Positions 2,350-22,442 of a DNA stretch of 64,000 nucleotides are shown here, one piece after another; positions within the stretch are counted from its first letter, which is position 1, and each line of letters starts with the position of its first letter. The notes below the pieces were generated by a model that made no database searches, had not been told where the DNA came from, and saw nothing but the letters and a program-made list of their open reading frames with translations. The position numbers were made by a program, and so were the translations under genes. Source of the stretch: a virus; IMG/VR virus record IMGVR_UViG_3300006224_000008, positions 1-64,000 of that record; one strand, given 5' to 3'.

Positions 2350-5300
2350 GCAATTGCATTCAACTCAGTTTCGTAGACGGCCCGAAGGTCGAAGTAACCG
2401 GCGATGTGCCTTCGTCCTACCGGGTCCAGTTCATCGACGACGACACGGGCATCCAACATTACGAAGCCCGGATTGCGACCAACAACTGGTGCGCGGCCAA
2501 TCTCCGATATTTCGTCAACTGGCGGATCAAGGTCGAGGAAAATGGCGCGGAGGTCGTCGAACACGTCTTTCGCCCAAAGCGGACGCGAGTATTCATTCAA
2601 CTGGGCAGCAAATCACTGGGCGACACGGTAGCGTGGATGCCCTTCGTGGACGAATTCCGCAAGCTGCACGAGTGCGAGGTTCACGTGGCCACGCACTGGA
2701 ACAGCATCTTCAATTATCCAGACTTGAAGTTCATCGAGCCCGGCCAGGAACAGCTTGCCGATTACTACGCGGCATACCGCGTCAACGCCTATGACAACGA
2801 TCTCCGTCGCAATAAAAACAACTGGCGGCTGGTGCCTTTGCAGCAAGTCGCCGCCGACTATCTGGACATCGAATGCCTTCCACATCCGGCACGGCTAAAA
2901 TGTTCAACGGATGGTAGGCCCATGCACGAGCGTTACGCTGTGCTTTCCGAGTTCAGCACTTTCTACGGGAAACAGTGGAATCATCCCGGGGGATGGGACC
3001 GTGTCGTCGATTGGCTGCGCGGCATCGGTTACACCGTCTGTTCGGTGAGCAAGGAACCTACGGCGCTGAAGGATGTCGTCGCCTGGAACAACCGGCCTAT
3101 AATCGAGACTCTTCGCAACATCCAACACGCTGACCTTTGCGTTACGGTGAGCAACGGAATTGCGTGGCTGGCGTGGTCCCTGGGCGTGCCGACGGTCGTC
3201 ATCAGCGGCATGACAGATCCCTTTGTCGAAATGCCCGACTGCATTCGTGTCCACAACCCGGACATCTGCCATGGTTGCTACGGCGACGTGCGGTATCCCA
3301 TCGACCGCGGCAACTGGCTTTGGTGTCCGCGCTCGAAAAAATTCGAATGCTCACGCGGCATCACGCCGGAACAGGTCATTGCGGCCATCGATCCGCACAT
3401 TGATCGGAGCCTGGATGCCATTGCTCTACGCTGCGGAACAGACAAGGCGAGTACCCACCACAACTACTGCTTCCGATATGAGGGATTGTTCGCGGCATTC
3501 AAGGACCGACCCATTCGGCTCCTGGAGATTGGTGTAGACAAAGGCGCTTCGATTCGCACATGGCTGGAGTACCTGCCGCAAGCTGAGGTTTGGGGACTCG
3601 ACGTTGACGACTGCCAGTTCACTCATCCGCGCTTTCACTTCGTTAAAGGCGACCAGACAAACCCCGAACTGCTGGAGAGCCTTGGCGTGTTTGATGTCGT
3701 CATTGACGATGGGTCTCATCGCGCCGACGCGATCAAAGCGACCCTGGATATTCTGTTCCCGAAAACGCGGGAATTGTACGTCATCGAAGACGCGTTCGCC
3801 GTCTGGCATCCCGCCTTTGCTGGAGACAGCCCATTCCCTGACCTCGTGCGCAACTCCGCCACGGGCGCTATCGGCTCCGTCGCGTTCCAGCACGGTCTCT
3901 GCCTCATTCGGCCGCAGACAACAAATGCTTCGCCGAGATTTTCGCTTATCATGCCAACCAAGGATCGACCGGAGATGATCCAGCGCGCCGTGGCCAGCGT
4001 GATTGGGCAGGACTTCGCTGACTGGGAACTAATCATCAAAGATGGCGGCGAGAGTGTCCAAGACCTGCTGCCGGACGATCCCCGAATCCGCTATGAACAT
4101 TGCGATGGAGGTCCGTTCGAACGTTTCAATCGCGGCATGGCCGAGGCTCGCGGCGAAATCCTGAATTTCTGCGCCGATGACGACATTCTTTTCCCCGGTG
4201 CCTTGCGTCAGGTGCATGACCATATTGGCGCCGCCATGTGGTGCTACGGCGTGATCCGGCGCACCGACACAAAAGCAATTCAAGGTGAGGCGTGGGACCC
4301 CAAGAAACATGCGACACTGAACATTGTGCCGACCCCGGGGTTCTTCTGGCGCAAAGCGGCCTATGAACGCATCGGAGGATGGGATCCAAAACTCGTCTGC
4401 GCCGATTGGGACTACTCGCATCGGCTGGCGGCGCGCTGGGAGCCGGTGTTCATCCCGTACATCATGGCGACCTACACGGTTCACGACGGCCAGGATACAT
4501 GGCATCGCCAGGAGGCCATGCAGCGCGATGTGGTCAAAATCGTGCGGCGCGCCCAGGAAGGTCACTATCGGTCAAACCGGGTTCTCTTCATTGCGCCGCA
4601 TCTCTCAACTGGCGGCATGCCGCAGTACCTCCTCCGCAGAATCGAGGACATGGGCGGAAAAGCCAAAGTCAAAGTCATCGAGTGGAACAATATCAGCGAC
4701 GAATACACCGTACAGAAGAAGGCGATCCGGTCCCTTTGCGACATTACCACGCTGAACGGCGACAAAGCGGCGTCACTCAGGAAGGAAGTTGAAGACTGGG
4801 GTCCCTCGGTTGTGCATCTGCAAGAGTTCCCGGAGCTTTTCATGGGCTATTTGCCAGTCGAATGGCTTTATCGCAAGGATCGTCCTTACCGAATCATCGA
4901 GACCGGGCACAGCACGCGACTGCGCGTAGACCAGAAGAAAACGAGACCGGACGAGTTTGAGTTTGTCGGCGACTGGCACGCAAAGGAGTTCCAGAGCTAC
5001 GGCGTGCCGTTCCACATCGCTCGATACCCGGTGAGGCAGCGCAAGCGGCCAGAGAGATCGCAAGCACTTGGCAGGCTCGGTCTCAAACCAACTATGGGTC
5101 ATGTGCTCCAGGTTGGTCTCTTCGCGCCGTGGAAGAACCAAGCGTTCACAGTCAGGGTAGCCGCGTTGCTTCCAGAAGTGGCATTCCACTTCGTTGGGAA
5201 TATGGCTGAGAACTTTGCGGATTACTGGCGACCTCTGACCGATAGCCTGCCCGCCAATTGCTGGGTCTGGGGCGAGCGCGCCGATGTTGACGCCTTCTAC

Positions 5301-5522
5301 GCAGCGCTTGACGTGCTTCTTTTTCCAAGCACAGAAGAGTGCAGTCCACTCGTTCCAAAGGAGGCGATGGAGTGGGGAATGCCAGTCGTCATGCGTGACC
5401 TAGATACTTATTGCGGTGAATTCGACGGCAAAGTACACTACGCGACCAGCGTAGAAGAAGCAGCGACGCGTATCGTGGGGCTGATCGGCACTCCGCCTGT
5501 GAGCGCGCCAACAAAAGGCTAG
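2346..5522 (+). CDS. Multidomain TibC/Aah-like protein O-heptosyltransferase + SAM methyltransferase + GT2 + GT4 fusion
   Basis: SKSLGDTVAWMPFVDEFRK and the Cys motif CHGC..WLWCPR..FEC match the Aah/TibC family. LLEIGV..GAS and IDDGSH mark a methyltransferase; SLIMPTKDR..CADDD a GT2; APHLSTGG, VGLFAPWKNQ and ECSPLVPKEA a GT4. Confidence 0.88.
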   Translation: MSNCIQLSFVDGPKVEVTGDVPSSYRVQFIDDDTGIQHYEARIATNNWCAANLRYFVNWRIKVEENGAEVVEHVFRPKRTRVFIQLGSKSLGDTVAWMPFVDEFRKLHECEVHVATHWNSIFNYPDLKFIEPGQEQLADYYAAYRVNAYDNDLRRNKNNWRLVPLQQVAADYLDIECLPHPARLKCSTDGRPMHERYAVLSEFSTFYGKQWNHPGGWDRVVDWLRGIGYTVCSVSKEPTALKDVVAWNNRPIIETLRNIQHADLCVTVSNGIAWLAWSLGVPTVVISGMTDPFVEMPDCIRVHNPDICHGCYGDVRYPIDRGNWLWCPRSKKFECSRGITPEQVIAAIDPHIDRSLDAIALRCGTDKASTHHNYCFRYEGLFAAFKDRPIRLLEIGVDKGASIRTWLEYLPQAEVWGLDVDDCQFTHPRFHFVKGDQTNPELLESLGVFDVVIDDGSHRADAIKATLDILFPKTRELYVIEDAFAVWHPAFAGDSPFPDLVRNSATGAIGSVAFQHGLCLIRPQTTNASPRFSLIMPTKDRPEMIQRAVASVIGQDFADWELIIKDGGESVQDLLPDDPRIRYEHCDGGPFERFNRGMAEARGEILNFCADDDILFPGALRQVHDHIGAAMWCYGVIRRTDTKAIQGEAWDPKKHATLNIVPTPGFFWRKAAYERIGGWDPKLVCADWDYSHRLAARWEPVFIPYIMATYTVHDGQDTWHRQEAMQRDVVKIVRRAQEGHYRSNRVLFIAPHLSTGGMPQYLLRRIEDMGGKAKVKVIEWNNISDEYTVQKKAIRSLCDITTLNGDKAASLRKEVEDWGPSVVHLQEFPELFMGYLPVEWLYRKDRPYRIIETGHSTRLRVDQKKTRPDEFEFVGDWHAKEFQSYGVPFHIARYPVRQRKRPERSQALGRLGLKPTMGHVLQVGLFAPWKNQAFTVRVAALLPEVAFHFVGNMAENFADYWRPLTDSLPANCWVWGERADVDAFYAALDVLLFPSTEECSPLVPKEAMEWGMPVVMRDLDTYCGEFDGKVHYATSVEEAATRIVGLIGTPPVSAPTKG

Positions 5523-8954: not shown

Positions 8955-11900
8955 ATGCCCCAGGTTTTCACGTCCGAGGAACTTGGACTTCAGCCGGAAG
9001 CCAAGGGACCGGCCGTCTTCACAAGCGCGCAGCTTGGACTTGACCAGGAACCCACCGCACAAGCTCCGGCAGTTCTTACGCCGCAGCCCGAGATCGACAT
9101 CGGCGCGCCGATCAACATTCCCCCGGCGCCTAGTGCGCTTGGCGCCGTCGGCGAGACACTGATGAGCTTTCCCAAAGGTCTTGGGATGGCCGCCTCTCTT
9201 GCTGGTCCTCCGCTCAAGGCAGCCGTTGCTGACGTAGCCGCGCTCGCCGGTGCCGGTCAAGGTGGCAATCTTGCCGCATGGTCGGAGGGTGAGCAGATGC
9301 CGATGCAAAGGCCGGAATCGCCGTGGGTGAAATCACTGCCGCTGCGCGTCGCCGGTTCGTTGGTCGAGACAGCCCCGAAGATCGTCGGTATGGCTCTCGG
9401 ACCAAAGGGACTTATTGGATCCAGCCTGACTGCCGCCGCCCTGTTTGGCACTGACGAAGAAGGTAATTTCCATCCCACCGAAGCGCTGATTGCCGCTGGC
9501 ATTCCCGGAGTCATGCATCTGGCGAAGATCGGGATCAGTAAAGGCATCCTGAAGGCAATCCCGTCGGCTGAGATCGCCAGCAATCCCGTAGTCCAGAAAG
9601 CTACAGAATTTGTGGGCGAGCAGGCCGCGCTGAACGCGTACATGACGGCAACGGCGTCGCCGGAACTGATGCGCTTGTGGCGCGAGAACCCGGAAGAGGC
9701 CAAACGGCAGATCGCGGATATTGTCGGGGTGAACCTGGGCTTCGCGCTTCTAGGCATAGGCAACTGGCGCAGGAGAGTGCCGAGTCACACGGAACGTTAC
9801 CTCGCGGCGAACCAGAAGAGGTACGCGGACCTTACCGACATGCTGATTACGCGGGCAGCGGTCGGCCCCGAAGCGCAGCGTGAGATTGAAGCCACGATAA
9901 AAGCCCGCATGCTGCACTGGACCGGCGACATTGGCATCGGCCCGAGAACGACTCCGCCACCGTTGGTGGACAGAACCATCGAGGAAGCACAGAACGCACT
10001 TCTGCCGCCCGCACTAAGGCCGCAGGCGTTGCCTCCGGCATTGCCTCGCCCAGCGGTGCCGCCACGATTACCAGGGAATGAACCCCTGTTGACGCCGGAA
10101 CAGCAAGATCGCGTCGAGGCACGAATGCGTGCCGATGATGCTGCACGACAACAAGAGAAAGGACCTTATGCCCCTCCAGTCAGGATCGAGCCGCCAAGTG
10201 GTGTCCAGCAATATCCGGGAACTCCACAGCGGGAAAACGTACCGCCATACCCTCCGGAAGTTCGGCCGGAAGCGGGCGAACAAGCAGGCCGTGGCTATAG
10301 CATTGAACGAGGCGGGGCTGTCCCGCCGGAAGCGCCGCCACCTGAGCCTCAAATCCTGACATCTGAAAGCGCCAGATCCATCGACGAGTTTCCACCTAGC
10401 CAGCAGGAACTAGACGCGTTGCGTGAGAAGATAATGGCCGGAAGGCCGGAGGGCCTCACACCAAGAGAAAAGGAAGTACTCGATTGGCAGAAGCGACAAT
10501 CTGAAAATCTGCGGCTACTCTCCCCGGAAAACGCGGCCAAGCTTTCCGAGAAAGATTTTGAGCGATGGGCATACCCTAGGTGGACCGAAGAGCCGATCAG
10601 CGTCTCCGACGCAAAGGATGTATTTGAAATCCTGAGCGCGCTACTGATGAGAGGGGCTGATCGGATGAACATTAGGAAAGTTGCATCGATCCTAGCCTAC
10701 AATGTCCAGCGCGAGACTGATCCGGCCATACTGCGGAAAATGTTTGAAAGAAGCGGAGATCCGTACACCGAGGAAGAGATACAGAAAACCGCAGAGGCCA
10801 ACGAGGAACACAATCGGGCCACTGCTTCATATGTCGAGGCTGGCCGGGCCGCGCTCGCCGAAAAAGGCAAAACGCCCGCGCCGCCACCTGAGCCTCAGAT
10901 AAGAGGTCCGAAACGACCCGAGGACCTCACACCAGAGGACGGGATTCCGTACCTACTTAACCGACTTGGCAACGTTGAACGGTTGGTCAGTTTTGGCCCC
11001 AAGGCCGACCGCGATCTATTCGAGAAAGAACGGCAGAATATCCTGTGGGAATTATACTCACTCGACCGGCTGCCAGAAACCTACGTCAAGCAGGGCAACA
11101 GGTGGGTACAGGCGCGACCTGAGCCTCAGATAAAAGCCCCAGAATCTCCCGGCTTGATGCCGGAGTCAGCCAAGCCAATCGACTGGAAAGTCGAACTCCA
11201 GGCGACCATCGCGGACATGCGGAGACGAATTGCCACGCGTGAGGAAGTGTCTGGCGCAATTGCCCAGGTACGCCAGCCGTTGGTAGATGAGGCGTTCCGA
11301 AAAACAATCGAAGCGTGGGATGCGGTTGAGAAGGAACCGGATCCTTTCAAGAAAGTACAGTTGCAGAGTCTCGCACGGAAGGCCGACGACGATGCAGTCA
11401 AGTTCTTCTCCAAAGAGCAGAAGGAAACTGTTTTTCGCCGCATGATCGACGGGGAAGAACGTGTACAAGCTGCATGGGAGAAGTTCAATCTGGACTCCGT
11501 GCCAGAGAACGTTCGGGGAATCAGAATGCGGCCAACTGACCCCGAAAAAAGGTGGTTCTATCTCATCACGCCGTCCACCTATCCCGACCAGAAGGGGAAA
11601 TGGCAGGCAACGAGAATCGATGAGAGGGGACCATTCGGGCATTTCAACGCAGATACGCCTCAGGATGCTGTTGCGTCCTTGAGTGGTAGAACCGTTAAGG
11701 GAATTGGACCCCCTTGGGGATCCGTTGGAGAATGGGTAGTTGAGCGCGCAGAGCGCATACCGAAAGGTGGTGAAGCGTATGCCAAAGAAGAAAGGGTGCA
11801 AGGGCCGCAAGAAGTAGGCCCACAACCAGTGTTGCCCCCGGTCGAACCCGGAGGTAAAGTATTGCCGAGTCCAGAAGCGGTCCAACCTATCACCGTCCGC

Positions 11901-14900
11901 ACTGCTACCGGTGGCGAGATCTCCCAACCGCGCAGCACCGAAGGGGAAAAAGCTCCTGAAATGACGGTGGGCGAGGCCCCAGGTCAAGCTGTTCCTCGCA
12001 CCGCTTCTGAACTCGCTGCTCTCATAGCTGTCGCCAAGAGGGTTGAAAGCCGCGACCGCCAGCTCTACGAACAGATCAAGTTCTCCGGCAACCCCAGAGC
12101 CGCAGCAAAAGCGCGTGCCGCATGGCGCCAGACCAAACTCAATGTACGCGAACTCCAGCGGGAACTGAAAGCCCTCAAAGGCCCGAAAGGCATAGACATC
12201 AGCAAGCGCATGACGGCGGACGTTGGCGGGGAACGGATGCCCGACATCATTGATGACATCCTTGCCAATGTCGGCACGAAACTGTCTCTCGACTCCGCCA
12301 AGCAATACATGGAGGACATTGAGGAGAGGCTGAAGCGCGGTGGGGCCGCAGCCAAGTTGTTCACGCGAAAAGGCGGTCTCGCAATCGACGACGCCTTGGC
12401 CATGCTGATCGAGGCGAATCCGAATTACCGGCGACTGGAGACCGAGTACGATTTGCTGGATGCCATATTCGGCGCAGCCGAGAAACGGAAAGGCGCTAGG
12501 AAGGGCGAAGTTCGGGAAGAGCAAGTTCTGTCTGACAGGGAACGCCAGACGATAGATTTTGAAGAGGCCGCATTGCGCCAACGTGCCGACACTGAAGGAG
12601 TAAAAGCGGATACCCTCCTCATCGGCACCAAGTTCAAGTTGAGGGATGTTGAGTTTGAAGTGCAGGATCTGATCTTCGATGACAACGAGAACCTGCTCTT
12701 TGTCGTAGTTGAAGATGGCAAACGGTTTGGCACGCAACGCGTCGGCGCCGACTGGTACATTTTCCCGGACAAAGGCTCCCTTGAAAGGAAGGAGGCAGAA
12801 GTTGAATTCGTCTCGCCAGAGGAAGCGGCGGCACCGGAGGGGCCAACCCCTGAGTGGCGACGCCTTTTTGATGAGGAAAAGATAACCGGAGCCCAGGCGA
12901 AGACATTGCGGGCCATCGAGGCGGATACAGAATCAATCCGCCAGATACCAGTCGGAGGAGAGACCGAAACTTATGTCCGATTCAAAAACGGTGTCATAAA
13001 GTGGGTCACGAAAACGGGGGAACTCGCGGAGACCAGCCGGGCAGATGAGGCGTTCCCATCGGAAGAAGGGGCAACGACCCCGCCCGTATCCGTTTCTAGG
13101 GCGAATCTGATCTGGAATGCTGTCGCGGCATATCTCGAATCGATTCGCGCAATCGGCGCGCCATCCGACGCTGTAATTCAAGGTGTCATGGAAATAACCG
13201 GACTGGACAGGGGTGAGGTCGAGCCCGCGTTGGAAACGTTGAAATATGAAGGCAAAATCGAATGGCAAAAGAGGTTGCCGCAGCAAATCAATCTCATCCA
13301 AAGACCCCCTCCCGCCCCTGCCGCCGAACAGCCCCCTGTGGAAGGTGTTCCAGAGAGAGGACCAGCTCCGCCAGTTGCGCCTCCATCCCCGCCTAAACCA
13401 GCAGGCCCGGCACTGGACCTGTTCGGTCAACCTATAGCCCCAGAGAAACCGGCCGCGCCCGAACCGCCGAAGGGTCCGCAAGAGATCCAAGGCGGACTTG
13501 AAATCGGAACGGTGCCCTCCGGGGAACCTGCGGTAAAAGAGCGCCCCCTGACAGCGGCAGAGAAAAAGGAATTTCGGGCTCTCAGTCTCAAGCTCAGGGC
13601 CAACCGCGAAGAAGGCGGTGAGGCGCTGACAACTGAAGAGGCCCAGCGCTATGAGTACCTCGGAGCATTGGCGGGACAGAAGACGCTTGGAATCGATGTC
13701 CAGGTTGGGCTAAAGGGCAAACTAAAAGCGCTTGTGGCCCAGCTTGCATCACTTGACCAGCGGAAGCCGCAGTCCAGAGGTAAACGTTATGACAAGTGGG
13801 CACTCGACCGCAGCGACATCGAACGCCAGATAAAGAAGATTCGCAGTCAACTCACCGAAGGCCAGGGCGAAGATCTGGGCACTTCCGGACCACCAGAAGA
13901 AATGCCCAACGGCATGTTCATGCAGAGGCGCCGACGCGTCCGACAGATGACCGACGAGGAAGTACGCGAACGCTGGCCTGACCCCGGAGAGCGCTTGGAC
14001 GTGTTTCGCCTCTATGGAGAGCGACCATGGGTGGCTGAGTCCAGAACGATGGAGTTCTCGGATGCGTTCGGAACGCAACTGGAGGAAACCGGTGACTGGT
14101 ACATTGCCGCCTGGGGTAAGAGTCGCGATGAAGCGATAACTGAGGCGCAGCGGCAGAAGCGGAAAGGTTGGGAGAATCTGCCGGAGAAGAAGCCGGAACC
14201 GCCGCCTGCCATCTGGGCTAAGGAGCTATGGCAACTGACACGAAAGGAACTTGGCGACAACCGCGAGTTGCTTAGGCCGAAACTGGGCGTTGTCAGCGAC
14301 ACGATGCACCGGGATGCTGTTGCGCAGGCCATTCGAGACGGCAAGCCGGTACCGCCCGAGGTCCTGGCTGATTTCCCTGAACTCGCGCCCAAGCCCGAGG
14401 CTCCGCCACCAGCTCCAGCAGCCCCGGCAAAACCCGAGTTCGCTGGTGGCGCCCCAGAAGGTGCCCGTGTGGGCAATTACCTCAAGAAAGATGGCCGCTG
14501 GTACCGTGTCGATGCCGAGGGGAACCTTGGCAAGATCCCGACCAACAAAAAGCAGCACGACCAGCTTGAGCAGGAGTTCGCCTCGCCAACCCCTGCGGAC
14601 ACGCGCACGCCGATTGAGATTCTCGCCCAGGCAAAGCGCGTCAGCGTGAAGTTGCCCGAGGGTGCCACTGTGTTGCGCGGGTATGACGCGAAGGGCCGGA
14701 AGTCGGACATTTTCATCGCCAACATCAACAAGGGCGACAACATTTTCCGTGACGCTGGCATCGTTCGCGTCGAAGCCGGGTTCATCAACAAGGACAAGCA
14801 GTTTAAGCCAATCAAGGGCGACATCAAAGTTTCCGAACGCAAGCCAGCGAGGGAGGGAATGCTGCCGGAGACTGAGCGGCAAGCGCTACCGGAGAAGCCC

Positions 14901-17900
14901 CCTGGCGCTCCTATCCAGATGAGCGGCAACGACGGGTTTCTGATCCCGCCGCTGGAGACTGGGCCGCGTGAGGGGCTGCCCGCGTTCCACGGCACACCGC
15001 ATGAGGTGGACAGATTTCAATTGAAGTACCTGGGTACCGGCGAAGGTGCGCAGGTCTTTGGATGGGGACTCTATTTTGCAGAGGCGAGAGAAGTTGCTGA
15101 GAGATACAAACAGTCTCTGAGCGGTGGGGAACCGAGGTCATCCTATCGGTTCAATGGAAGGGAGGCATGGGAATGGCAGCGTGATTTTGAAAAGGCGATG
15201 GAGTATGACAAAGCATCGGTGTGGGAGAGGATACAACTGCACCATCCAAAGAACGCAATACGTGTAGCTGCTAGGGCTATCATCACGGACGATGCTGAAA
15301 GCGCTGCCAAACTGCTAAAGTACATCGAGACACTCCCGGATAGTTTATTCGCCAAAGAACGGGGCAACATCTACACCGTTGACATCGCCGAGGATTCCAT
15401 ACTGCTCGACTGGGATAGGCCGCTTCGAGAGCAGCCGCAAGCCGTGCGCGCCGCGCTGGCAAGACTGGAAGAGCAGGGCGATCCACAGGGGACATTACAC
15501 GCTCTGAAAGCTGTTCTTGCAGAGCACCTGACTGGTTCAGACTTTTACCGCCGCCTCGAAGCTCTGCGCGGGGCCAAGTGGGCGAGCGAAGCGCTCCAGT
15601 CCGTAGGCATCAACGGCATTCGATACCTAGACCAGAAAAGCAGGGATTTTATAGTCCAACACAGACCATCAGACGGAAAATGGTACGTCCTTAGCGGCAA
15701 GCCGTCCCCCGGTTTCGCTACAGAACGCGAAGCGCGTGATTGGGGATATGAACAGAGTTCGCGCAACTACGTTATCTGGGACGAGTCGAAGATCCGCATC
15801 ACTGAAAAGAACGGCAAGCCAGTTTCCCTCGATGAGTTTCGACAGGCCATGCCCCCCCGCGAAGGCGAAGCGGTTCCTAGCCGCGACGTGATTCTCGCCC
15901 AGGCCGATTCTCCTGAGCAGTTGCTGGCGCACGTTGACCGCCCGGAGCTTCAGATTCCGGCCGAGATGAAAGCGCTGGTCAAAGCGCTTCTCAGTCATCC
16001 CGTCGCCAAGAAAATACAGGGATTACGCTGGGCGATTGCTGATGTGCTTGCCGGTGGATTCGAGGGCGACTTTGATCCTCATGGCCGTCTGGCGCGCTTC
16101 TCGCGCTGGGCTGAAGTTAAGGCGCCTGTTCACGAGTTTCTCCATGACCTCTGGTACTTTCTGCAACCGGGCGAGCGCGGCGAGTTCATGGCCATGCGCG
16201 TTGAAGAGATTCGCAAGGCCCTGAAAGACCTTCCGCGTAACGCAGCGGAGATCGCCGCTCTGGAAAAGCTGCTGGAAGCACCTGTGACATCCGAGGAGTT
16301 CCTCGCACTGAAAATGCCGCGGTCACTTTACTGGCTGGCAAACGAACGCGAGTTCTTCGTGAGTGCGATGCAGGAACCCCTCGTGAAACGTCTCACGACG
16401 CCGGAAGCGCAAGGTGCGATTGCCAAGGTCCGCGAGTACATCAAAGGCTTGTGGGATGCATTCAAGGATTGGACGAAACTATCCCCCAAAACCGAGAGAC
16501 TCTTCCGCCAGATTTTCGAAGGCAAATACGAGTTCACACCGGAACAAGGGGCGGCGGCAGAGGCACGGGAGGGGGCGTTGCCCACGAGTCCTGAGGAGTT
16601 CAGAAAACAGAAGCGCCTTCTGGAACCGAACGTTGCTGGCAGAACGCTGGCAGGTTTCGCTGAGCCAGCGAAGATGAAAATGGAGCTGGCCGACCAGTTC
16701 AACCTGTCACCGCGGGCGCGCCGGATGATACGGCTGCCGCGTGAGGCGGAGATGTACAGCATCGCGGCGGGCGAATTGACCGGTATCGAAAATTATGTCC
16801 AGGCCAGAGACGCAGTTCCGAAGGATAACCCACATCTGCGTTGGGGAGTGACGCATGATGCCATAACGGGTATTGATTTTCAGGAGCACCTTGGCAGGAC
16901 TCTTACGGCCACATACGAGCGGCAGTTAGCCAAGGTGGATTCACCAGCTTTCCAACAGAAGATCTTCCGCGAAGCACAGCTTGCACTCAGGTCCGACCTC
17001 GCCGCCGAGAAAGAGGAAACCTTCCGGAACATCATCGCTGGGAAGGCCGCTGCACTGGAAGCGCAAATCCGCAATGCCGCCGGTGACGACGCACGCATCG
17101 AGACGCTTCGGGAGGACCTACGATTGACGCGTCCGCTGATGGACTGGGCCATGGCTGTGTCCCAGCAGATGGACAACATCGTCAATCGCGTGTACCGCGA
17201 GTACACGGAGTTCGGTCGCGCAGGTTACTGGACGCGCTGGCGGGAGAATGCGACGGGGCCGAAAAACGCAGAAGAGTTCTTCCGCCTCTATCAGCGTGCA
17301 CGAGCGGCCGAAGGCAATCCCCTCGTCGAACGCCAGGAAGTGGCCCTTGCGCGTCTTGCATCCGAAATCCTGGGGATCAACTTCGGACTAGCGGACAGGT
17401 TGCTTTGGGCGGAACGGTGGCGCCGCGAGCCCGACTTTGCCAAGGCAGTGAACGAACTGGGGGAAAAGTTCGTAAAGGATCTGCGCACGGACCCGGCCAA
17501 AGCCATTCGGGGCATGATAACTCGCGAAGGCACGCTCGCCACAAGAGCGTGGCAGGCGAAGACAGCCTACCTCGCCATCAATCGGGACGTGATGCGGGAA
17601 CTGGAACTCCTTGGCGATCTGGAACAAGCCGCGACGGTGATGAAACGCCTCCGCGATTCGGATCAATGGAAGCAACTCGTCAACACCGTCATCACTGACG
17701 CGGAAGGCGAAGGCGTTCCTGCTGTGGTCGTCGATGCGATGCGCGCCGGAAAGTATTCCTCCGCTTTTAACGAAGGGACCGGTAAACAAGTCTGGGTCGA
17801 TCCGAAAGGTGGGTTCCACGAGGTTGATCTGAACTGGACCCCGGACAAGGCTGTTGAAGCGCAAAAGAAAATAGACGGCTTCCTGACAGCCGTGAACGAC

Positions 17901-20900
17901 TGGATCTACGACGATGCCAACGCGAACAGCCCCGAGCTGGCGTATTGGCGGCAACAAGCTGACTGGGTGCGCGCAGTCTACAAGACGGCCTCGGTATTCG
18001 CTCCGAGCGCGGTGAAAAGTTTGTTCGTCCAGCATTCGCTGACCATGCTTTCCCCGTTCTTCCGGCAAGCCAAACTACCAGCAGTGAAGGTCTTGCAGGA
18101 CATGGCGGAGAACTATGAGCGTGCGCAGAATATCGGCAAGCAATGGTCTGTTGGCTTCGACCAGGACAACATGGACAAGGCTAGGCGCGCCGCGGAGGCG
18201 CACGGTTTCCATCCTATCTCGGAACTCCCGCTGTATCGTTCAAACATTTTTGATTCGCTGGCGTGGCATTATCGGCACGGCATCGCCATCAAGCCCGGGC
18301 AGAAACTGTATGGCGTGACGGTGCTCAAGGAAGACATCGACCTGCTGAAACACCAGGGCGGTGGCCTGTTCAATCTGATAAAGCGGGCACTGCCGATTGG
18401 GCGCAAAGGCCGAGAAGCGAAGATGCAGGAGGCGCGCTTGGTTGACCAATACCTGAAGACCGCTTTCCTGATGCGTCCCCCTCAGGAGTTCGGCGCCGAG
18501 CCAGGAACAACCGTGATGCGCGACTTCAGCACGCGTGGTGGCGGATTTGCGGATGCCGTCGGGAAAAACGCGATAGACGTCAAGCAGGAGGTCAAAGGCG
18601 GAAAGACTGTCGAGACCAGGGAAGTCAATCTGGATAAGTTCATGCAACTAGCCAACCTGCCGCAGTACTTCGAGCCTGTGGTGTGGCGATGGATTTCCGA
18701 ACGATCGAGGCAGTATAACGATGACACCGGATTCGAACCGTTGCTGAACAAACTGCGTGATCGGATTCACGAAGGAACAAATCCACCGAGGAGTGTTGAA
18801 GACGTTCTCGATTACATCACACGCAATTCTGAGGCTTCCCCCGAAGAGGTCAAAAAGGCCATTGTCGGCAACATGGCCAAGGAAACGTTTTCGTATTACA
18901 GGAATTTCATCGAAAAGCCGAGTGGAAGATCACTGACCGTTCGCGCCCTTCGTGCCACGTCACAAGGACCATTCAACACCGCGTTCGACCACGACATTGG
19001 CAGTTCCTTTTTCTACGACTACGGCATGTTCAGCACTCAGGAGGTCCGGGCTGCCGCCGTGGATGCCACCATGTTTTACCTGGAACGCGTCGAGGCTGCC
19101 ATGCGCAGTACTCTCGATGTGTACGATGAGGCCCTCAGGCAATTTCGGGAAACGAGATCTGGCAGTCCAGAGCGCAAAGCTTTGATGCAGCAAAATCGGG
19201 CACTGTTCAGGTCCGGTGATGATTTCCGGGATTATTCGGCTTTACGCGGCCAGCGCGATGAACTCCAGTGGTTCATGGAAAATCTTCCCATCTGGTCTAA
19301 GCAAAATATCTCCCGAAACGAAGGGTTGAACACCCTGTACCGGGTCATCGGAGATTCGGTCGTCAGCAAGCTGGCTGGATGGAAAACTGTGTCTCGCGTG
19401 TTTACTGGGTCTGCGGTGAAACAGGGGTTCGTGTTCAGCGCGATTGACCGGTTATACGGCACGTCCTACCTGAAATCGGCACTGTCAATGGCATTGAGCG
19501 CATACGACATCGCACTCAAAGGCCCGGCCATGTATCTGGCACGCAGGGCTGGATTGGCTGAGAAGCGGAAAGAAAAGTTCAGCGGCGTTGCCGAAGAGAT
19601 CTTCCGGGAAGGTAAATTCTTCGATCCGCTCTACGACTTGGGCATGGGCACAAAAACGCCCTTGTTGAATACCATAAAGAACAACCTCGCCATGCCATAC
19701 ACGCATGGCCGTGGTTATGACCCCAAGTTCTCAACCAATGCTGGCATCGCCCTGCTTCAAAAGGGTGCCTATCGGCTGTTATCGGGGGCCGAAACACCAC
19801 TGGAAGTTTTGCGGACTATCTTCCCGACCCTCGGCTATTCAGTTGCATACGACTCCGTCGCACGTCAGGCGTTCAACGCAATCAGCGTTATAGAGCGTCA
19901 AGCCCGCAGGTCGTTCGAACTGCACGAAGAAGCTGGCACCCTGGGCCGGTTCGACCTCAACGACCCGCGCAATCCGAAAAATGTACTGCCCGCATCTGAC
20001 ATTCTACCTCGTGGCCTGTTTCCAAAGACGCAGACGCAGTTAGCGCAGGCTCGTGAATTGTTCAAGCGAGGTACTGACGGAGATCTGAACGATTTCGTGA
20101 TGGAATTTTGGGCCAAACTCGCCAGAACGCCAAAAGACCAACGGGGCGAGGTCCATCTTCTCAGCGCAGACGCAAAAACACCAGAGGAAGCCGCCCGCCT
20201 TCAAACCAACCGCAGTCTGGGGATTGCGGCAATTGGACTTCTGGACATCCACCATGCCGGTTTCACAAACCGCATGTGGGTGATGCGTGGGTCTTCGATG
20301 TGGCGCCTGATGCAGCCAATCGCTGGTTGGACGTTCCAATCTACGAGGCAGTTATTTGAGTTGTTTGGGAAAAGCGCCACTGATCCCGCTTTGCGCCCCG
20401 CTGTCGCTACCGCTCTTACGGCGATCATGGTTCTGGCTGGCCTCGCTGCCATGGGCATTGGCGGTGACCTTGAGAAGCGGCTGTTTGATGAACTGGAGTG
20501 GATCATCAACAAGCGAGTCGATCCAGTCCGCTATTTCGGCATGGGCCGAGACTGGAAGGAGAACACGATCATCGCCTTAACCGGCATCTTCACGTATATC
20601 ACGGTTCTCTCCGGGTACTTGGAACGGTTGATGAGCGAGAAGGGAAATCGAACCAGTGTAACGGACCAAATGTTCGTGCTTTCTCTGGCGAACTCCATGG
20701 TCAGGTACGTCAGCGGAGTTATTCACACGAAGGATCCGAACTACGGTCTGGCTGGATTCGTGACCCGGGAAATTCCATCCCTGAAGCCCCTAATCCGACG
20801 GACGAGCGCCAACGAAGGGCTGACCAATGTTGAAAATGCGATAACGGCGATACAACGTTTCGCGCCGAAAGACCTCATACGACAGACTACGGGCGGTTTC

Positions 20901-21587
20901 GGAATGCCCACTCCGACCGAACTGAGCGTTCCAAAGAACAAACTCAAAAACGCGATCTACGCGGGCGATTCTGAAGGTGTCATCAAGTACTTCGCCGAAC
21001 TGCGCAATAAGGCCGTCGAACTCAAGCGCACAGAACCGTTGCGACTCGCGGCTGACATCATGCGCAGCCTCAACCCGTACACGTTGGCACTCATCGGCCA
21101 TCCTACCGAAGTGCAACGTCAGGAATTGCTGGGCAGATTGAGCGACCGTGAGCGTCAGGTCATTCTGGATGCCGAAACCAACTATCTGGCTGCCGCGCAG
21201 TTGGTTGGTGTGCAGTCCCGAATGACCCGCCAGCCTCCTGGTGGCGGCGGTGAGGCCGTCTCAGCGGCCCCTGCGTTTGGCGGCGGTTACGCCGTTGGCG
21301 GCGGTGGTGGCGCCGGGTTGCGCGGTATTACGACCGGCTACGGCGGCGCCGGTGGATTCCCTTCGGTCAGGCGAATCTCGCTTGGCCGCGCTGGTGGAGT
21401 TCCAACCGCTTTCAGGCGTATCTCAACGCGCCGGGGTCCAACCACACGGTTGCGACTCGGTGGCCGCATTGGCAGGCCCCGCCGTTACACCACGGGAAGG
21501 ATAAAACTCCGGCCGCGAAGACTCGGAATGCGGCTTCGGCAGAGGGTTACGTTGCCTCGGACCCGGAGACTGACACTGAGAGTCTGA
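8955..21587 (+). CDS. Giant polyvalent internal virion protein (4210 aa) with ADP-ribosyltransferase-like domain, HExxH zincin-like motif and Arg-rich C-terminus
   Basis: Uninterrupted 12.6-kb ORF. AFHGTPH..F..LGTGEGAQVFGWGLYFAE...GI.Y.D...NYVIWDE (~14980-15800) is ART-PolyVal-like; VHEFLH lies at ~16130; a hydrophobic segment lies near 20400-20460. Confidence 0.85.
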   Translation: MPQVFTSEELGLQPEAKGPAVFTSAQLGLDQEPTAQAPAVLTPQPEIDIGAPINIPPAPSALGAVGETLMSFPKGLGMAASLAGPPLKAAVADVAALAGAGQGGNLAAWSEGEQMPMQRPESPWVKSLPLRVAGSLVETAPKIVGMALGPKGLIGSSLTAAALFGTDEEGNFHPTEALIAAGIPGVMHLAKIGISKGILKAIPSAEIASNPVVQKATEFVGEQAALNAYMTATASPELMRLWRENPEEAKRQIADIVGVNLGFALLGIGNWRRRVPSHTERYLAANQKRYADLTDMLITRAAVGPEAQREIEATIKARMLHWTGDIGIGPRTTPPPLVDRTIEEAQNALLPPALRPQALPPALPRPAVPPRLPGNEPLLTPEQQDRVEARMRADDAARQQEKGPYAPPVRIEPPSGVQQYPGTPQRENVPPYPPEVRPEAGEQAGRGYSIERGGAVPPEAPPPEPQILTSESARSIDEFPPSQQELDALREKIMAGRPEGLTPREKEVLDWQKRQSENLRLLSPENAAKLSEKDFERWAYPRWTEEPISVSDAKDVFEILSALLMRGADRMNIRKVASILAYNVQRETDPAILRKMFERSGDPYTEEEIQKTAEANEEHNRATASYVEAGRAALAEKGKTPAPPPEPQIRGPKRPEDLTPEDGIPYLLNRLGNVERLVSFGPKADRDLFEKERQNILWELYSLDRLPETYVKQGNRWVQARPEPQIKAPESPGLMPESAKPIDWKVELQATIADMRRRIATREEVSGAIAQVRQPLVDEAFRKTIEAWDAVEKEPDPFKKVQLQSLARKADDDAVKFFSKEQKETVFRRMIDGEERVQAAWEKFNLDSVPENVRGIRMRPTDPEKRWFYLITPSTYPDQKGKWQATRIDERGPFGHFNADTPQDAVASLSGRTVKGIGPPWGSVGEWVVERAERIPKGGEAYAKEERVQGPQEVGPQPVLPPVEPGGKVLPSPEAVQPITVRTATGGEISQPRSTEGEKAPEMTVGEAPGQAVPRTASELAALIAVAKRVESRDRQLYEQIKFSGNPRAAAKARAAWRQTKLNVRELQRELKALKGPKGIDISKRMTADVGGERMPDIIDDILANVGTKLSLDSAKQYMEDIEERLKRGGAAAKLFTRKGGLAIDDALAMLIEANPNYRRLETEYDLLDAIFGAAEKRKGARKGEVREEQVLSDRERQTIDFEEAALRQRADTEGVKADTLLIGTKFKLRDVEFEVQDLIFDDNENLLFVVVEDGKRFGTQRVGADWYIFPDKGSLERKEAEVEFVSPEEAAAPEGPTPEWRRLFDEEKITGAQAKTLRAIEADTESIRQIPVGGETETYVRFKNGVIKWVTKTGELAETSRADEAFPSEEGATTPPVSVSRANLIWNAVAAYLESIRAIGAPSDAVIQGVMEITGLDRGEVEPALETLKYEGKIEWQKRLPQQINLIQRPPPAPAAEQPPVEGVPERGPAPPVAPPSPPKPAGPALDLFGQPIAPEKPAAPEPPKGPQEIQGGLEIGTVPSGEPAVKERPLTAAEKKEFRALSLKLRANREEGGEALTTEEAQRYEYLGALAGQKTLGIDVQVGLKGKLKALVAQLASLDQRKPQSRGKRYDKWALDRSDIERQIKKIRSQLTEGQGEDLGTSGPPEEMPNGMFMQRRRRVRQMTDEEVRERWPDPGERLDVFRLYGERPWVAESRTMEFSDAFGTQLEETGDWYIAAWGKSRDEAITEAQRQKRKGWENLPEKKPEPPPAIWAKELWQLTRKELGDNRELLRPKLGVVSDTMHRDAVAQAIRDGKPVPPEVLADFPELAPKPEAPPPAPAAPAKPEFAGGAPEGARVGNYLKKDGRWYRVDAEGNLGKIPTNKKQHDQLEQEFASPTPADTRTPIEILAQAKRVSVKLPEGATVLRGYDAKGRKSDIFIANINKGDNIFRDAGIVRVEAGFINKDKQFKPIKGDIKVSERKPAREGMLPETERQALPEKPPGAPIQMSGNDGFLIPPLETGPREGLPAFHGTPHEVDRFQLKYLGTGEGAQVFGWGLYFAEAREVAERYKQSLSGGEPRSSYRFNGREAWEWQRDFEKAMEYDKASVWERIQLHHPKNAIRVAARAIITDDAESAAKLLKYIETLPDSLFAKERGNIYTVDIAEDSILLDWDRPLREQPQAVRAALARLEEQGDPQGTLHALKAVLAEHLTGSDFYRRLEALRGAKWASEALQSVGINGIRYLDQKSRDFIVQHRPSDGKWYVLSGKPSPGFATEREARDWGYEQSSRNYVIWDESKIRITEKNGKPVSLDEFRQAMPPREGEAVPSRDVILAQADSPEQLLAHVDRPELQIPAEMKALVKALLSHPVAKKIQGLRWAIADVLAGGFEGDFDPHGRLARFSRWAEVKAPVHEFLHDLWYFLQPGERGEFMAMRVEEIRKALKDLPRNAAEIAALEKLLEAPVTSEEFLALKMPRSLYWLANEREFFVSAMQEPLVKRLTTPEAQGAIAKVREYIKGLWDAFKDWTKLSPKTERLFRQIFEGKYEFTPEQGAAAEAREGALPTSPEEFRKQKRLLEPNVAGRTLAGFAEPAKMKMELADQFNLSPRARRMIRLPREAEMYSIAAGELTGIENYVQARDAVPKDNPHLRWGVTHDAITGIDFQEHLGRTLTATYERQLAKVDSPAFQQKIFREAQLALRSDLAAEKEETFRNIIAGKAAALEAQIRNAAGDDARIETLREDLRLTRPLMDWAMAVSQQMDNIVNRVYREYTEFGRAGYWTRWRENATGPKNAEEFFRLYQRARAAEGNPLVERQEVALARLASEILGINFGLADRLLWAERWRREPDFAKAVNELGEKFVKDLRTDPAKAIRGMITREGTLATRAWQAKTAYLAINRDVMRELELLGDLEQAATVMKRLRDSDQWKQLVNTVITDAEGEGVPAVVVDAMRAGKYSSAFNEGTGKQVWVDPKGGFHEVDLNWTPDKAVEAQKKIDGFLTAVNDWIYDDANANSPELAYWRQQADWVRAVYKTASVFAPSAVKSLFVQHSLTMLSPFFRQAKLPAVKVLQDMAENYERAQNIGKQWSVGFDQDNMDKARRAAEAHGFHPISELPLYRSNIFDSLAWHYRHGIAIKPGQKLYGVTVLKEDIDLLKHQGGGLFNLIKRALPIGRKGREAKMQEARLVDQYLKTAFLMRPPQEFGAEPGTTVMRDFSTRGGGFADAVGKNAIDVKQEVKGGKTVETREVNLDKFMQLANLPQYFEPVVWRWISERSRQYNDDTGFEPLLNKLRDRIHEGTNPPRSVEDVLDYITRNSEASPEEVKKAIVGNMAKETFSYYRNFIEKPSGRSLTVRALRATSQGPFNTAFDHDIGSSFFYDYGMFSTQEVRAAAVDATMFYLERVEAAMRSTLDVYDEALRQFRETRSGSPERKALMQQNRALFRSGDDFRDYSALRGQRDELQWFMENLPIWSKQNISRNEGLNTLYRVIGDSVVSKLAGWKTVSRVFTGSAVKQGFVFSAIDRLYGTSYLKSALSMALSAYDIALKGPAMYLARRAGLAEKRKEKFSGVAEEIFREGKFFDPLYDLGMGTKTPLLNTIKNNLAMPYTHGRGYDPKFSTNAGIALLQKGAYRLLSGAETPLEVLRTIFPTLGYSVAYDSVARQAFNAISVIERQARRSFELHEEAGTLGRFDLNDPRNPKNVLPASDILPRGLFPKTQTQLAQARELFKRGTDGDLNDFVMEFWAKLARTPKDQRGEVHLLSADAKTPEEAARLQTNRSLGIAAIGLLDIHHAGFTNRMWVMRGSSMWRLMQPIAGWTFQSTRQLFELFGKSATDPALRPAVATALTAIMVLAGLAAMGIGGDLEKRLFDELEWIINKRVDPVRYFGMGRDWKENTIIALTGIFTYITVLSGYLERLMSEKGNRTSVTDQMFVLSLANSMVRYVSGVIHTKDPNYGLAGFVTREIPSLKPLIRRTSANEGLTNVENAITAIQRFAPKDLIRQTTGGFGMPTPTELSVPKNKLKNAIYAGDSEGVIKYFAELRNKAVELKRTEPLRLAADIMRSLNPYTLALIGHPTEVQRQELLGRLSDRERQVILDAETNYLAAAQLVGVQSRMTRQPPGGGGEAVSAAPAFGGGYAVGGGGGAGLRGITTGYGGAGGFPSVRRISLGRAGGVPTAFRRISTRRGPTTRLRLGGRIGRPRRYTTGRIKLRPRRLGMRLRQRVTLPRTRRLTLRV
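10168..10359 (+). CDS. Small basic phage protein overprinted in the +1 frame of the giant gene (MPLQSGSSRQVVSSNIREL...KQAVAIALNEAG)
   Basis: AAAGGA 4 nt before ATG; matches the recurrent phage small-protein pattern MPL..G.S...(I/V)S.NIRE....KQAVAIAL..A. Confidence 0.75.
   Translation: MPLQSGSSRQVVSSNIRELHSGKTYRHTLRKFGRKRANKQAVAIALNEAGLSRRKRRHLSLKS
10332..11133 (+). repeat. Three dispersed direct repeats encoding PEPQI
   Basis: gcgccgccacctgagcctca is identical at 10332-10351 and 10878-10897; acctgagcctcagataa is identical at 10886-10902 and 11117-11133. Confidence 0.9.
11779..11817 (+). CDS. Candidate overprinted micropeptide MPKKKGCKGRKK (+1 frame)
   Basis: SD-like GAAAGGTGGTGA upstream; 7 of 12 residues are basic; TAG stop. 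Confidence 0.4.
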   Translation: MPKKKGCKGRKK

Positions 21588-22081: not shown

Positions 22082-22442
22082 GTGCCCGCCGTTCCTCGTT
22101 TTCGCACTGGCCAGACGTGGTACCGATAAACGACCGAAATTTGATGACATCGTGAAGGCATCCGGCCTGTCGGAGCGCACGTTCATCCGAATCGCATGTC
22201 GTTTTTCGTGGCGCGAGGTCAAGGTGAAGCACATTGACGGCTTTTGCCGGGCGTGCGGGGTAGACCCCTTCAATCTCGAACCGCACCTGGGGTTCCTGAG
22301 ACGGTCACTGACATCGGACAAACCTTTCGCCTACATGACCTCGCAGCAACTGGCGAGGTTCAATGACCATTGTAGTCGGATTGCCGATTTCGCGAGGGCT
22401 ACGGTTTCTGGAGCGCCATCGCGTCAAAGTCAATCTTCATGA
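22044..22442 (+). CDS. Putative Cro/CI-type helix-turn-helix protein
   Basis: FDDIVKASGLSERTFIRI...IDGFCRACGVDP resembles an XRE HTH; start set at MHTPTN. Confidence 0.6.
   Translation: MHTPTNLLGLLDKCPPFLVFALARRGTDKRPKFDDIVKASGLSERTFIRIACRFSWREVKVKHIDGFCRACGVDPFNLEPHLGFLRRSLTSDKPFAYMTSQQLARFNDHCSRIADFARATVSGAPSRQSQSS

What the first reader, a model, noticed from the sequence alone, without database searches (positions are those of the whole stretch)
10168..10359. Recognisable small phage gene overprinted in the +1 frame of the 4210-aa gene
The 63-aa basic ORF has its own AAAGGA RBS and matches a pattern I recognise from stand-alone small phage proteins (MPL..G.S...SSNIRE...KQAVAIAL.EAG). It lies in a Pro-rich, probably disordered linker of the host ORF, where dual coding is tolerated. 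Gene callers would miss it. Inference: a neighbouring gene was engulfed by the giant ORF and may still be expressed.
Basis: partly seen in the sequence, partly recalled or inferred. Interest (0 to 1): 0.75.

Follow-up and report, generated by a model that had tools for sequence, protein, structure and literature searches.

The report
Small phage gene nested in giant gene
A complete 63-codon gene for a widespread small basic phage protein lies one base out of frame inside a 4210-codon phage virion gene, which reads the same DNA as a flexible linker, so one stretch appears to encode two proteins and gene callers would miss the small one.

Summary
Observation confirmed. Window 10168-10359 (+) is an intact ATG-to-TGA ORF of 63 codons in the +1 frame of the 4210-codon ORF 8955-21587. 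It is a true member of a small basic phage protein family: phrog_2423 E 4.8e-10, and 21 called proteins of 54-70 aa at 58-76% identity, E down to 1.4e-16. Pfam DUF6496 matches below its cut-off.

The nesting recurs. Of 128 distinct copies in the window plus 153 viral and metagenome loci, 16 lie inside a large same-strand ORF. All 16 have the same +1 offset, across G+C 0.36-0.64.

In nested copies, changes pile up at third positions of the small frame. Small proteins stay 68-84% identical while the host proteins have diverged to 25-45%. Selection therefore protects the small frame.

Elsewhere the same domain stands alone in head-gene modules or forms the in-frame N-terminus of polyvalent (ART-PolyVal, LPD23) and DUF2213 head proteins.

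Expression, function and the route of capture in this lineage are untested. This scan already reported the same family nested in giant phage genes on at least three other genomes. I found nothing in print.

The parts
10168..10359 (+). Nested small gene, 63 codons plus TGA. It belongs to the small basic 'MPL...KQAVAIAL' phage protein family (phrog_2423, DUF6496-like).
   Evidence: AF2 model of three helices, pLDDT 89.8.
10158..10163 (+). SD-like AAAGGA, 4 nt upstream of the ATG. Modest strength.
   Evidence: -5.3 kcal/mol, and 20% of in-ORF positions are as strong.
8955..21587 (+). Host ORF of 4210 codons, a giant polyvalent-type virion-module protein. It reads the small gene in the -1 frame relative to it.
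   Evidence: Relative P0174 (4171 aa) has the N part contiguous with the rest.
9930..10358 (+). Approximate Pro-rich, low-complexity linker of the giant protein (about aa 326-468) that contains the overlap.
   Evidence: translation. GC3 of the giant frame is lowest here.
10336..10374 (+). First copy of a 39-nt direct repeat family. The other copies are at 10882-10920 and 11113-11151. This copy encodes the non-conserved C-terminal tail and the stop of the small ORF.
   Evidence: The tail differs from those of the nearest homologues.
14979..15128 (+). ART-PolyVal-like region of the giant protein (aa 2009-2058), below the Pfam cut-off.
   Evidence: 19.6 bits against a cut-off of 31.2. The same region aligns with P0174 and with the L027 fusion protein, which scores 50.2 bits.

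Best explanation
Window 10168-10359 is a real, selectively maintained gene for a small basic three-helix phage protein. It starts at its own ATG inside the mRNA of the 4210-codon virion gene, which reads the same DNA one base earlier as a Pro-rich linker. This is same-strand dual coding.

The small gene is the older layer and the giant frame was laid over it. The arrangement is one of three interchangeable layouts for this module: a free-standing gene in the head module, an in-frame N-terminal domain of polyvalent or head proteins, or a gene nested out of frame in a giant gene.

Shown: family membership, recurrence of the nesting, and selection on the small frame in nested copies.

Inferred:
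- Independent initiation at the internal ATG.
- The module needs a free N-terminus, which would explain why it is kept out of frame rather than fused mid-protein.
- It acts inside the head with packaged proteins or DNA, as a targeting or escort module or as a basic internal protein. I put this at about 35%.
For: Membership:
- phrog_2423 E 4.8e-10.
- 21 homologues at 58-76% identity.
- The window protein carries all 12 columns that are invariant across the 22-sequence alignment, which includes the window protein itself.

Recurrence:
- 16 of 128 distinct copies are nested, each with at least 100 host-frame codons open on both sides. All 16 are at offset +1, at G+C 0.36-0.64.
- In 43 free-standing genes the corresponding frame is open over the whole gene in only 4.

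Selection (12 nested copies):
- Pairwise differences at small-frame codon positions 1/2/3 are 0.321/0.234/0.504.
- Amino-acid divergence is 0.354 in the small frame and 0.649 in the host frame.
- In six pairs with homologous host genes the small protein is 68-84% identical, while host flanks are 25-45%.

Window itself:
- In the overlap, GC3 is 0.81 in the small frame and 0.50 in the giant frame, among the lowest of the whole giant ORF.
- It is the only copy in the 73.6-kb record.

Initiation:
- The SD is in the strongest 4% of in-ORF positions in 10 of 16 nested loci.
- By my count from the table, the domain starts within 5 residues of the N-terminus in 119 of 150 listed representatives.

Context:
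- The gene follows a major head protein gene in L017 and phrog_3287 virion protein genes in L027 and L006.
- It forms the N-terminus of proteins with ART-PolyVal (L027, L091, P0037; P0093 below the cut-off) and LPD23 (P0044), and of the DUF2213 'head maturation protease' gp28 of phage AP22.
Against: - No expression data of any kind.
- The window's own SD is only modest.
- The one relative of the giant gene found, P0174 (about 32% identity in the N part), has a shorter linker at the matching site. The residues its +1 frame could encode do not fit the family, so it probably lacks an intact copy. Its DNA was not seen.
- One nested copy (L123) has a TAG at codon 10.
- Nested loci were found by similarity to the small protein, so decayed copies are under-sampled.
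- The host genes of the nested loci are mostly not detectably homologous to the window's.
- The 50-column tree is unresolved. The window's nesting could therefore be recent and not yet tested by selection.
- Function rests on gene context and fusions only. Fold searches gave nothing above noise.
Confidence: 0.75

Rival explanations
1. Relic. The small ORF is a recently captured gene that is no longer translated. The DNA now serves only as linker-coding sequence of the giant gene and has not yet had time to decay.
For: - The SD in the window is modest.
- P0174's linker looks like a decayed or shortened version.
- L123 carries a TAG.
- No close relatives are available to measure selection in this lineage.
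Against: - Start intact, no stops, and all family-invariant columns kept.
- GC3 follows the small frame.
- It is the only copy of a widely kept family in this genome.
- In other lineages the nested copy outlasts divergence of the host protein to 25-45% identity.
Confidence: 0.14
2. Not really dual coding. The 4210-codon ORF is two genes, an N part and a C part starting downstream of 10359. The frame between them is open only by chance, so the small gene is effectively intergenic.
For: - The giant frame over the overlap is low-complexity and atypical in composition.
- An in-frame ATG exists at 10434.
- The small gene is T-poor, which favours open alternative frames.
Against: - No stop codon exists, so ribosomes from 8955 must read through.
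- The same frame is open in all 16 nested loci, including A+T-rich ones, but in only 4 of 43 free-standing genes.
- P0174 has the N part joined to the rest in one 4171-aa protein.
- No free-standing N-part homologue of 222-707 aa was found.
Confidence: 0.05
3. Programmed frameshift. The small domain is joined to the giant protein's C part by a -1 slip near its end (mimicking the in-frame fusions), or to the N part by a +1 slip, rather than being made alone.
For: - In-frame fusions of the domain to polyvalent proteins exist.
- A -1 slip from the small frame would enter the giant frame.
Against: - No X XXY YYZ site lies in the last part of the small ORF in the window. Only 1 of 15 nested loci has one.
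- The start MPL is conserved and the domain is N-terminal.
- The small frame is closed upstream of 10129.
Confidence: 0.03
4. Assembly or sequencing artefact. A spurious indel puts an in-frame domain out of frame.
For: Single metagenomic record. One related short contig (L136) does show a frameshifted version of L026.
Against: - Contigs from runs of 3 studies are identical over 8955-12500, though they may include the source.
- Two compensating errors would be needed.
- The same offset is seen in 15 other nested loci.
- The ORF has its own Met start.
Confidence: 0.01

Closest known systems
phrog_2423 / Pfam DUF6496 (PF20106)-like small basic phage proteins. Examples seen here: Caulobacter phage Ccr10 gp080, and the N-terminus of Acinetobacter phage AP22 gp28.
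   Same: Same sequence family and length. Same MPL start and KQAVAIAL motif, with a basic tail. The nearest BFVD structures are uncharacterised phage proteins of 43-101 aa.
   Different: Here the gene is not free-standing but lies wholly inside another gene, out of frame. The window protein scores below the DUF6496 cut-off (17.9 against 24 bits). No member has a tested function: a search for DUF6496 found 0 papers.
Embedded same-strand out-of-frame phage genes, such as lambda Rz1 inside Rz (recalled from my own knowledge, not from a call).
   Same: A complete small gene with its own start lies inside a larger gene on the same strand in the +1 frame, and the layout is conserved across phages.
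   Different: In Rz/Rz1 the two products are partners and the embedded gene is specific to that pair. Here the embedded gene is an old, widely free-standing family, the host is a giant multi-domain gene, and the host reads the overlap only as a linker. The overlapping frame is the younger layer.
Polyvalent proteins of phages and conjugative elements (Iyer et al. 2017, PMC5512222; abstract and found passages read).
   Same: The host ORF is a giant multi-domain protein in a virion gene block with an ART-PolyVal-like region. The in-frame fusion partners of the small domain carry ART-PolyVal or LPD23, and one nested host (L026) carries LPD1.
   Different: The words 'overlapping' and 'frameshift' do not occur in that paper. 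No nested gene or DUF6496-like N-terminal module is described in the passages I saw.
T4 capsid-targeting sequences and internal head proteins (recalled; T4 Alt packaging is mentioned in PMC5512222).
   Same: An N-terminal element on proteins thought to be packaged in the head (ART effectors, prohead protease-like protein), and small basic proteins encoded in the head module.
   Different: No sequence relation was tested or claimed. The T4 sequences are short cleaved peptides, whereas this is a folded domain of about 50 residues. Packaging and cleavage are untested.

Membership tests
phrog_2423 small phage protein family | Significant match to the family profile | tested here: met
   E 4.8e-10, 40.3 bits. 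The 76-aa GTG-extended form gives E 9.1e-10.
phrog_2423 small phage protein family | Close homologues that are called, free-standing proteins of 50-70 aa | tested here: met
   21 proteins of 54-70 aa at 58-76% identity. Free-standing copies sit in tightly packed same-strand gene arrays.
phrog_2423 small phage protein family | Conserved residues and N-terminal MPL start | tested here: met
   M1 P2 I16 E18 L19 G22 G33 A37 Q40 A43 I44 A45 are invariant in A1, which includes the window protein.
Pfam DUF6496 (PF20106) | Score at or above the curated gathering cut-off (24 bits) | tested here: not met
   17.9 bits, E 0.004. Relatives reach it: the L091 protein scores 24.4 bits and P0005 carries a precomputed PF20106 hit. 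I therefore call it DUF6496-like, not a filed member.
Embedded out-of-frame overlapping gene (Rz/Rz1-type architecture) | Whole ORF inside a larger ORF, same strand, different frame | tested here: met
   10168-10359 lies inside 8955-21587 at offset +1.
Embedded out-of-frame overlapping gene (Rz/Rz1-type architecture) | Both frames kept by selection in relatives | tested here: met
   The small frame has third-position-biased change and 68-84% identity. The host frame is open in 16 of 16 nested loci against 4 of 43 free-standing genes. This was shown for the class, not for close relatives of this window.
Embedded out-of-frame overlapping gene (Rz/Rz1-type architecture) | Both products made | not testable with these tools
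   No RNA holder was listed and no proteomics is available.
Polyvalent proteins (host ORF) | Recognised polyvalent-associated domain above the cut-off | tested here: inconclusive
   ART-PolyVal scores 19.6 bits against a cut-off of 31.2. The same region aligns at E 3.9e-9 with the L027 protein, which scores 50.2 bits.
Capsid-targeting / internal head protein (works-like only) | Presence in virions or proheads, and processing by the prohead protease | not testable with these tools
   Only context and fusions are available.

The most novel reading that the evidence does not exclude
The small module is an obligate partner of giant head-packaged effector proteins. It would act as an escort, capsid-targeting or DNA-binding adaptor that only works with a free N-terminus. 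Phages would solve the need to co-inherit and co-express it in three interchangeable ways: neighbouring gene, N-terminal fusion, or gene-within-gene. The nested form may arise repeatedly, by read-through or by cassette insertion at linker repeats. If so, polyvalent-protein linkers are a general hiding place for conserved unannotated genes.
Probability: 0.25. Interest if true: 0.8.

Novelty: new variant of a known kind. Interest (0 to 1): 0.6.

Why it matters
Gene callers forbid genes inside genes, so this conserved protein is missing from annotations of every phage that nests it. The case is unusual in direction: an old, widely distributed gene is overlaid by the reading frame of a giant gene, rather than a new gene arising inside an old one. 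It is also replicated across very different phages, which gives a natural test set for how two frames share one DNA. Finally, it ties an uncharacterised family (DUF6496-like, phrog_2423) to head-packaged polyvalent effectors, which gives a concrete place to look for its function.

Tried and rejected
- Close DNA relatives of the window's giant gene. None by blastn in phage records. None by peptide patterns in viral contigs or metagenome contigs. P0174 as query gave one locus (L157) that does not reach the N-terminal region.
- Split form of the N part. No protein of 222-707 aa at E <= 0.001.
- Direct fusion origin. Flanks of free-standing loci whose small genes are sister to nested ones share no similarity with the nested hosts' N or C parts, in 6 pairs at E <= 0.05.
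- A fixed [small]-[ART] layout downstream of nested copies. Of 10 host C parts (800 aa or less each), only L026 hit a polyvalent domain (LPD1). The other 9 hit nothing above cut-off.
- -1 frameshift fusion. A slippery site was found in 1 of 15 nested loci.
- Fold. Foldseek against PDB gave nothing at E <= 0.001. The VIA wide search gave 7wmp_A (phage KHP30 tail) as best, with Z 6.7, rmsd 2.8 and 53 residues aligned. That is inside the stated noise range for helical models, so it is a lead only. A paper search for KHP30 was not followed beyond the listing. A profile search against PDB sequences gave E 0.076 at best.
- NCBIfam: no family. The ESM Atlas returned only hypothetical proteins, some DUF6496.
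- Expression. No RNA holder was listed. The runs laid were contigs with no differences, so they gave no population variation to test.
- Second +1-frame peptide MPKKKGCKGRKK at 11779-11817. It is 12 aa with no family evidence, so I treat it as chance.
- Tree of 117 small proteins. It has too few columns and most forks are open. Only the lower bound of 4 label changes is used.
- Cultured-phage names. tblastn with P0018 found nothing at E <= 0.01 and only weak partial hits at E <= 2.
- Papers. For PMC5512222 I saw the search listing, the start of the abstract and 12 found passages. All other papers were seen as search listings only. Supplements were not opened.
- Not-in-print claim. It rests (DUF6496, 0 papers), 42, 66 and 72 only.
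Full report
WHAT IS THERE. The window is 64 kb of a 73.6-kb linear viral record. At 10168-10359 on the + strand there is an ATG-to-TGA ORF of 63 codons, reading MPLQSGSSRQVVSSNIRELHSGKTYRHTLRKFGRKRANKQAVAIALNEAGLSRRKRRHLSLKS. It has 16 K/R against 2 D/E. It lies at offset +1 inside the ORF 8955-21587, which is 4210 codons long. The giant frame reads the same DNA as a Pro-rich stretch...GPYAPPVRIEPPSGVQQYPGTPQRENVPPYPPEVRPEAGEQAGRGYSIERGGAVPPEAPPPEPQ.... AAAGGA lies 4 nt before the ATG.

IS IT MORE THAN CHANCE. Yes.
- The peptide matches phrog_2423 at E 4.8e-10.
- It matches Pfam DUF6496 only below the cut-off (17.9 against 24 bits) and nothing in NCBIfam.
- A search of 5.8 billion proteins gave 21 called proteins of 54-70 aa at 58-76% identity, with E from 1.4e-16 to 4.7e-7.
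- An exhaustive HMMER search of 1.84 billion representatives gave 176 clusters at E <= 1e-3 and 27 at E <= 1e-10.
- The 22-sequence alignment has 12 invariant columns, and the window protein is one of its rows.
- The two minus-strand ORFs over the same DNA and the giant-frame segment hit no PHROG family.
- It is the only copy in the record.

THE NESTING RECURS. With the alignment as query, 73 loci came from viral contigs and 80 from metagenome contigs. Together with the window these hold 128 distinct copies. In 16 of them, the window included, the small ORF lies inside a same-strand ORF in another frame with at least 100 open codons on each side. Many loci are short contigs where nesting cannot be judged, so 16 of 128 is a lower bound.
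- All 16 have the same offset (small = host +1), at G+C from 0.36 to 0.64.
- Host ORFs run from 771 to more than 4176 codons.
- The offset is not a by-product of composition. In 43 free-standing copies the corresponding frame is open over the whole gene in only 4.
- One nested copy (L123) has a TAG at codon 10 but is otherwise well conserved. The other 15 are intact.

SELECTION.
- Among 12 nested copies, pairwise nucleotide differences at small-frame codon positions 1/2/3 are 0.321/0.234/0.504. The least variable position is the host frame's third position. This is the opposite of what selection on the host frame alone would give.
- Amino-acid divergence is 0.354 in the small frame and 0.649 in the host frame. 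The 43 free-standing genes give much the same values, 0.373 and 0.728.
- In six pairs whose host genes are homologous, so that the nesting is most simply inherited, the small proteins are 68-84% identical. The host frame over the same bases is 42-52% identical and the host flanks 25-45%.
- In the window, the overlap has GC1/2/3 of 0.58/0.50/0.81 in the small frame and 0.81/0.58/0.50 in the giant frame. The giant ORF overall has GC3 0.64, and the 192-nt windows around the overlap are among the lowest of the whole ORF. The local sequence is therefore shaped like a normal gene in the small frame, and the giant frame is the later layer.

INITIATION.
- In 10 of 16 nested loci the SD-like site before the small start is among the strongest 4% of positions inside the host ORF. 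Three loci have none.
- The window's site is modest, at -5.3 kcal/mol, and 20% of positions are as strong.
- By my count from the table, the domain begins within 5 residues of the N-terminus in 119 of 150 listed representatives. In 29 it follows a short extension of 7-63 residues. The three I looked at contain an internal MPL or VPL and look like mis-called starts.
- Two are deep inside the protein. One of these (P0112) is an unrelated repeat protein. The other (P0171) is a real in-frame internal copy.
- The near-invariant MPL start and the N-terminal position suggest that the module needs a free N-terminus. That would explain why it is kept as a separate out-of-frame gene when it sits in the middle of a giant gene. 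This is inference.

THE HOST GENE.
- The giant protein has a sub-threshold ART-PolyVal match at aa 2009-2058.
- Its one relative found, P0174 (4171 aa), aligns over the N part (32% identity, residues 52-375), the ART-like region (35%) and several other blocks. The N part and the rest therefore belong to one protein in both.
- At the matching site P0174 has a shorter Pro-rich linker with a faint echo of the window's giant-frame sequence. The residues its +1 frame could encode do not fit the family at conserved positions. Most likely there is no intact copy there, but I did not see the DNA.
- The host proteins of the other nested loci fall into several groups that are barely or not alignable with each other or with the window.
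- The 50-column tree of small proteins is unresolved. Its well-supported branches force at least 4 changes between nested and not nested.
- Flanks of free-standing loci with sister small genes share nothing with the nested hosts.
- The module has therefore moved between contexts several times. I could not show the route (read-through after stop loss, or insertion into a linker).
- Two observations bear on the route. In L138 an upstream ORF reads through the whole small gene and stops 9 codons later. In the window, the non-conserved tail and stop of the small ORF are encoded by the first copy of a 39-nt repeat that recurs 546 and 777 nt further on in the giant gene.

WHAT IT MAY DO.
- AlphaFold2 with 85 sequences gives a confident three-helix model: pLDDT 89.8, helices at 9-20, 23-32 and 34-62.
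- Its best structural neighbours are uncharacterised phage proteins, apparently of the same family.
- Searches of solved structures give nothing above noise.
- Free-standing copies sit in head or virion modules. One lies directly after a major head protein gene in L017, and others lie after phrog_3287 virion protein genes in L027 and L006. The window's phrog_3287 homologue is at 22399-24234.
- In Acinetobacter phage AP22 the domain is the N-terminus of the 441-aa gp28. That protein is annotated as head maturation protease and matches DUF2213 at 134.6 bits. It lies just upstream of the minor head and capsid genes.
- Of 10 longer proteins scanned, the in-frame N-terminal fusions carry these domains:
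  - ART-PolyVal in L027 (50.2 bits), L091 (31.2) and P0037 (32.1).
  - ART-PolyVal in P0093 at 29.6 bits, below the cut-off.
  - LPD23 in P0044 (27.9 bits).
- One nested host (L026) carries LPD1.
- The polyvalent-protein paper states that phage versions are probably packaged in the capsid, and that T4 Alt, an ART, is packaged in the head and injected (passages seen).
- My best guess is therefore a head-interior role, either as a targeting or escort module for packaged proteins or as a basic internal protein. I hold this at about 35%. Nothing here tests it.

RIVALS. A silent relic (0.14), two genes with a chance-open bridge (0.05), programmed frameshifting (0.03) and an assembly artefact (0.01) are set out with their evidence in the Rival explanations section. 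The artefact reading is weakened by identical contigs from runs of three studies over 8955-12500, with the caveat that these may include the source sample.

KNOWN OR NEW. Out-of-frame embedded genes are known in phages (Rz1 in Rz, recalled). I found no paper on DUF6496 and none on a gene nested in a polyvalent gene. The polyvalent-protein paper does not contain the words 'overlapping' or 'frameshift'. This scan has already reported the same small family nested in giant phage genes on at least three other genomes (e1-6091801, e1-5965141, e1-6179615). My tests here were run independently and agree with them. I class it as a new variant of a known kind, and the window as one more instance of a recurrent, unannotated arrangement.

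VERDICT. Observation confirmed and first reading supported. Confidence is 0.75 that this is a maintained, separately translated gene. Interest is 0.6.

Noticed in passing
window 10336-10374, 10882-10920, 11113-11151: A 39-nt direct repeat family (62-100% identity to the reference copy) with spacings of 546 and 231 nt, both in frame. The first copy encodes the non-conserved tail and stop of the nested ORF. It is a possible module or recombination joint in the giant gene.
   Followed up: partly
L123 6001-6216: Nested copy with a single TAG at codon 10 of the small frame, otherwise well conserved, while the host frame stays open (641 codons upstream and 2038 downstream). It could be recent loss, a sequencing error or read-through.
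   Followed up: partly
L138 375-574: An upstream ORF in the host-like frame reads through the entire small gene and stops 9 codons after it. It looks like an intermediate between the free-standing and nested layouts.
   Followed up: no
L136 757-1110: A short contig nearly identical to L026 upstream of the small gene, but with a frameshift inside the small ORF that would also break the host ORF. It is either an assembly error or a broken variant.
   Followed up: no
protein P0171, residues 297-349 of 748: A rare in-frame internal copy of the domain, without the Met start, in the middle of a 748-aa protein. This is an exception to the N-terminal rule.
   Followed up: no
window 11779-11817: A 12-codon +1-frame ORF, MPKKKGCKGRKK, in the same frame as the nested gene. 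There is no family evidence, so it is probably chance.
   Followed up: partly
window 2346-5522 and 32973-35306: A large methyltransferase/glycosyltransferase fusion (phrog_21658, phrog_2170) and a GT2-containing 777-aa protein lie within the virion gene block. Earlier notes of the scan describe a glycan locus here.
   Followed up: no
window 36074-40030 (-): A 1318-aa protein with VWA, P-domain-like, F5/8 type C-like and calcineurin-like phosphoesterase matches. It may be a tail or adhesion protein.
   Followed up: no
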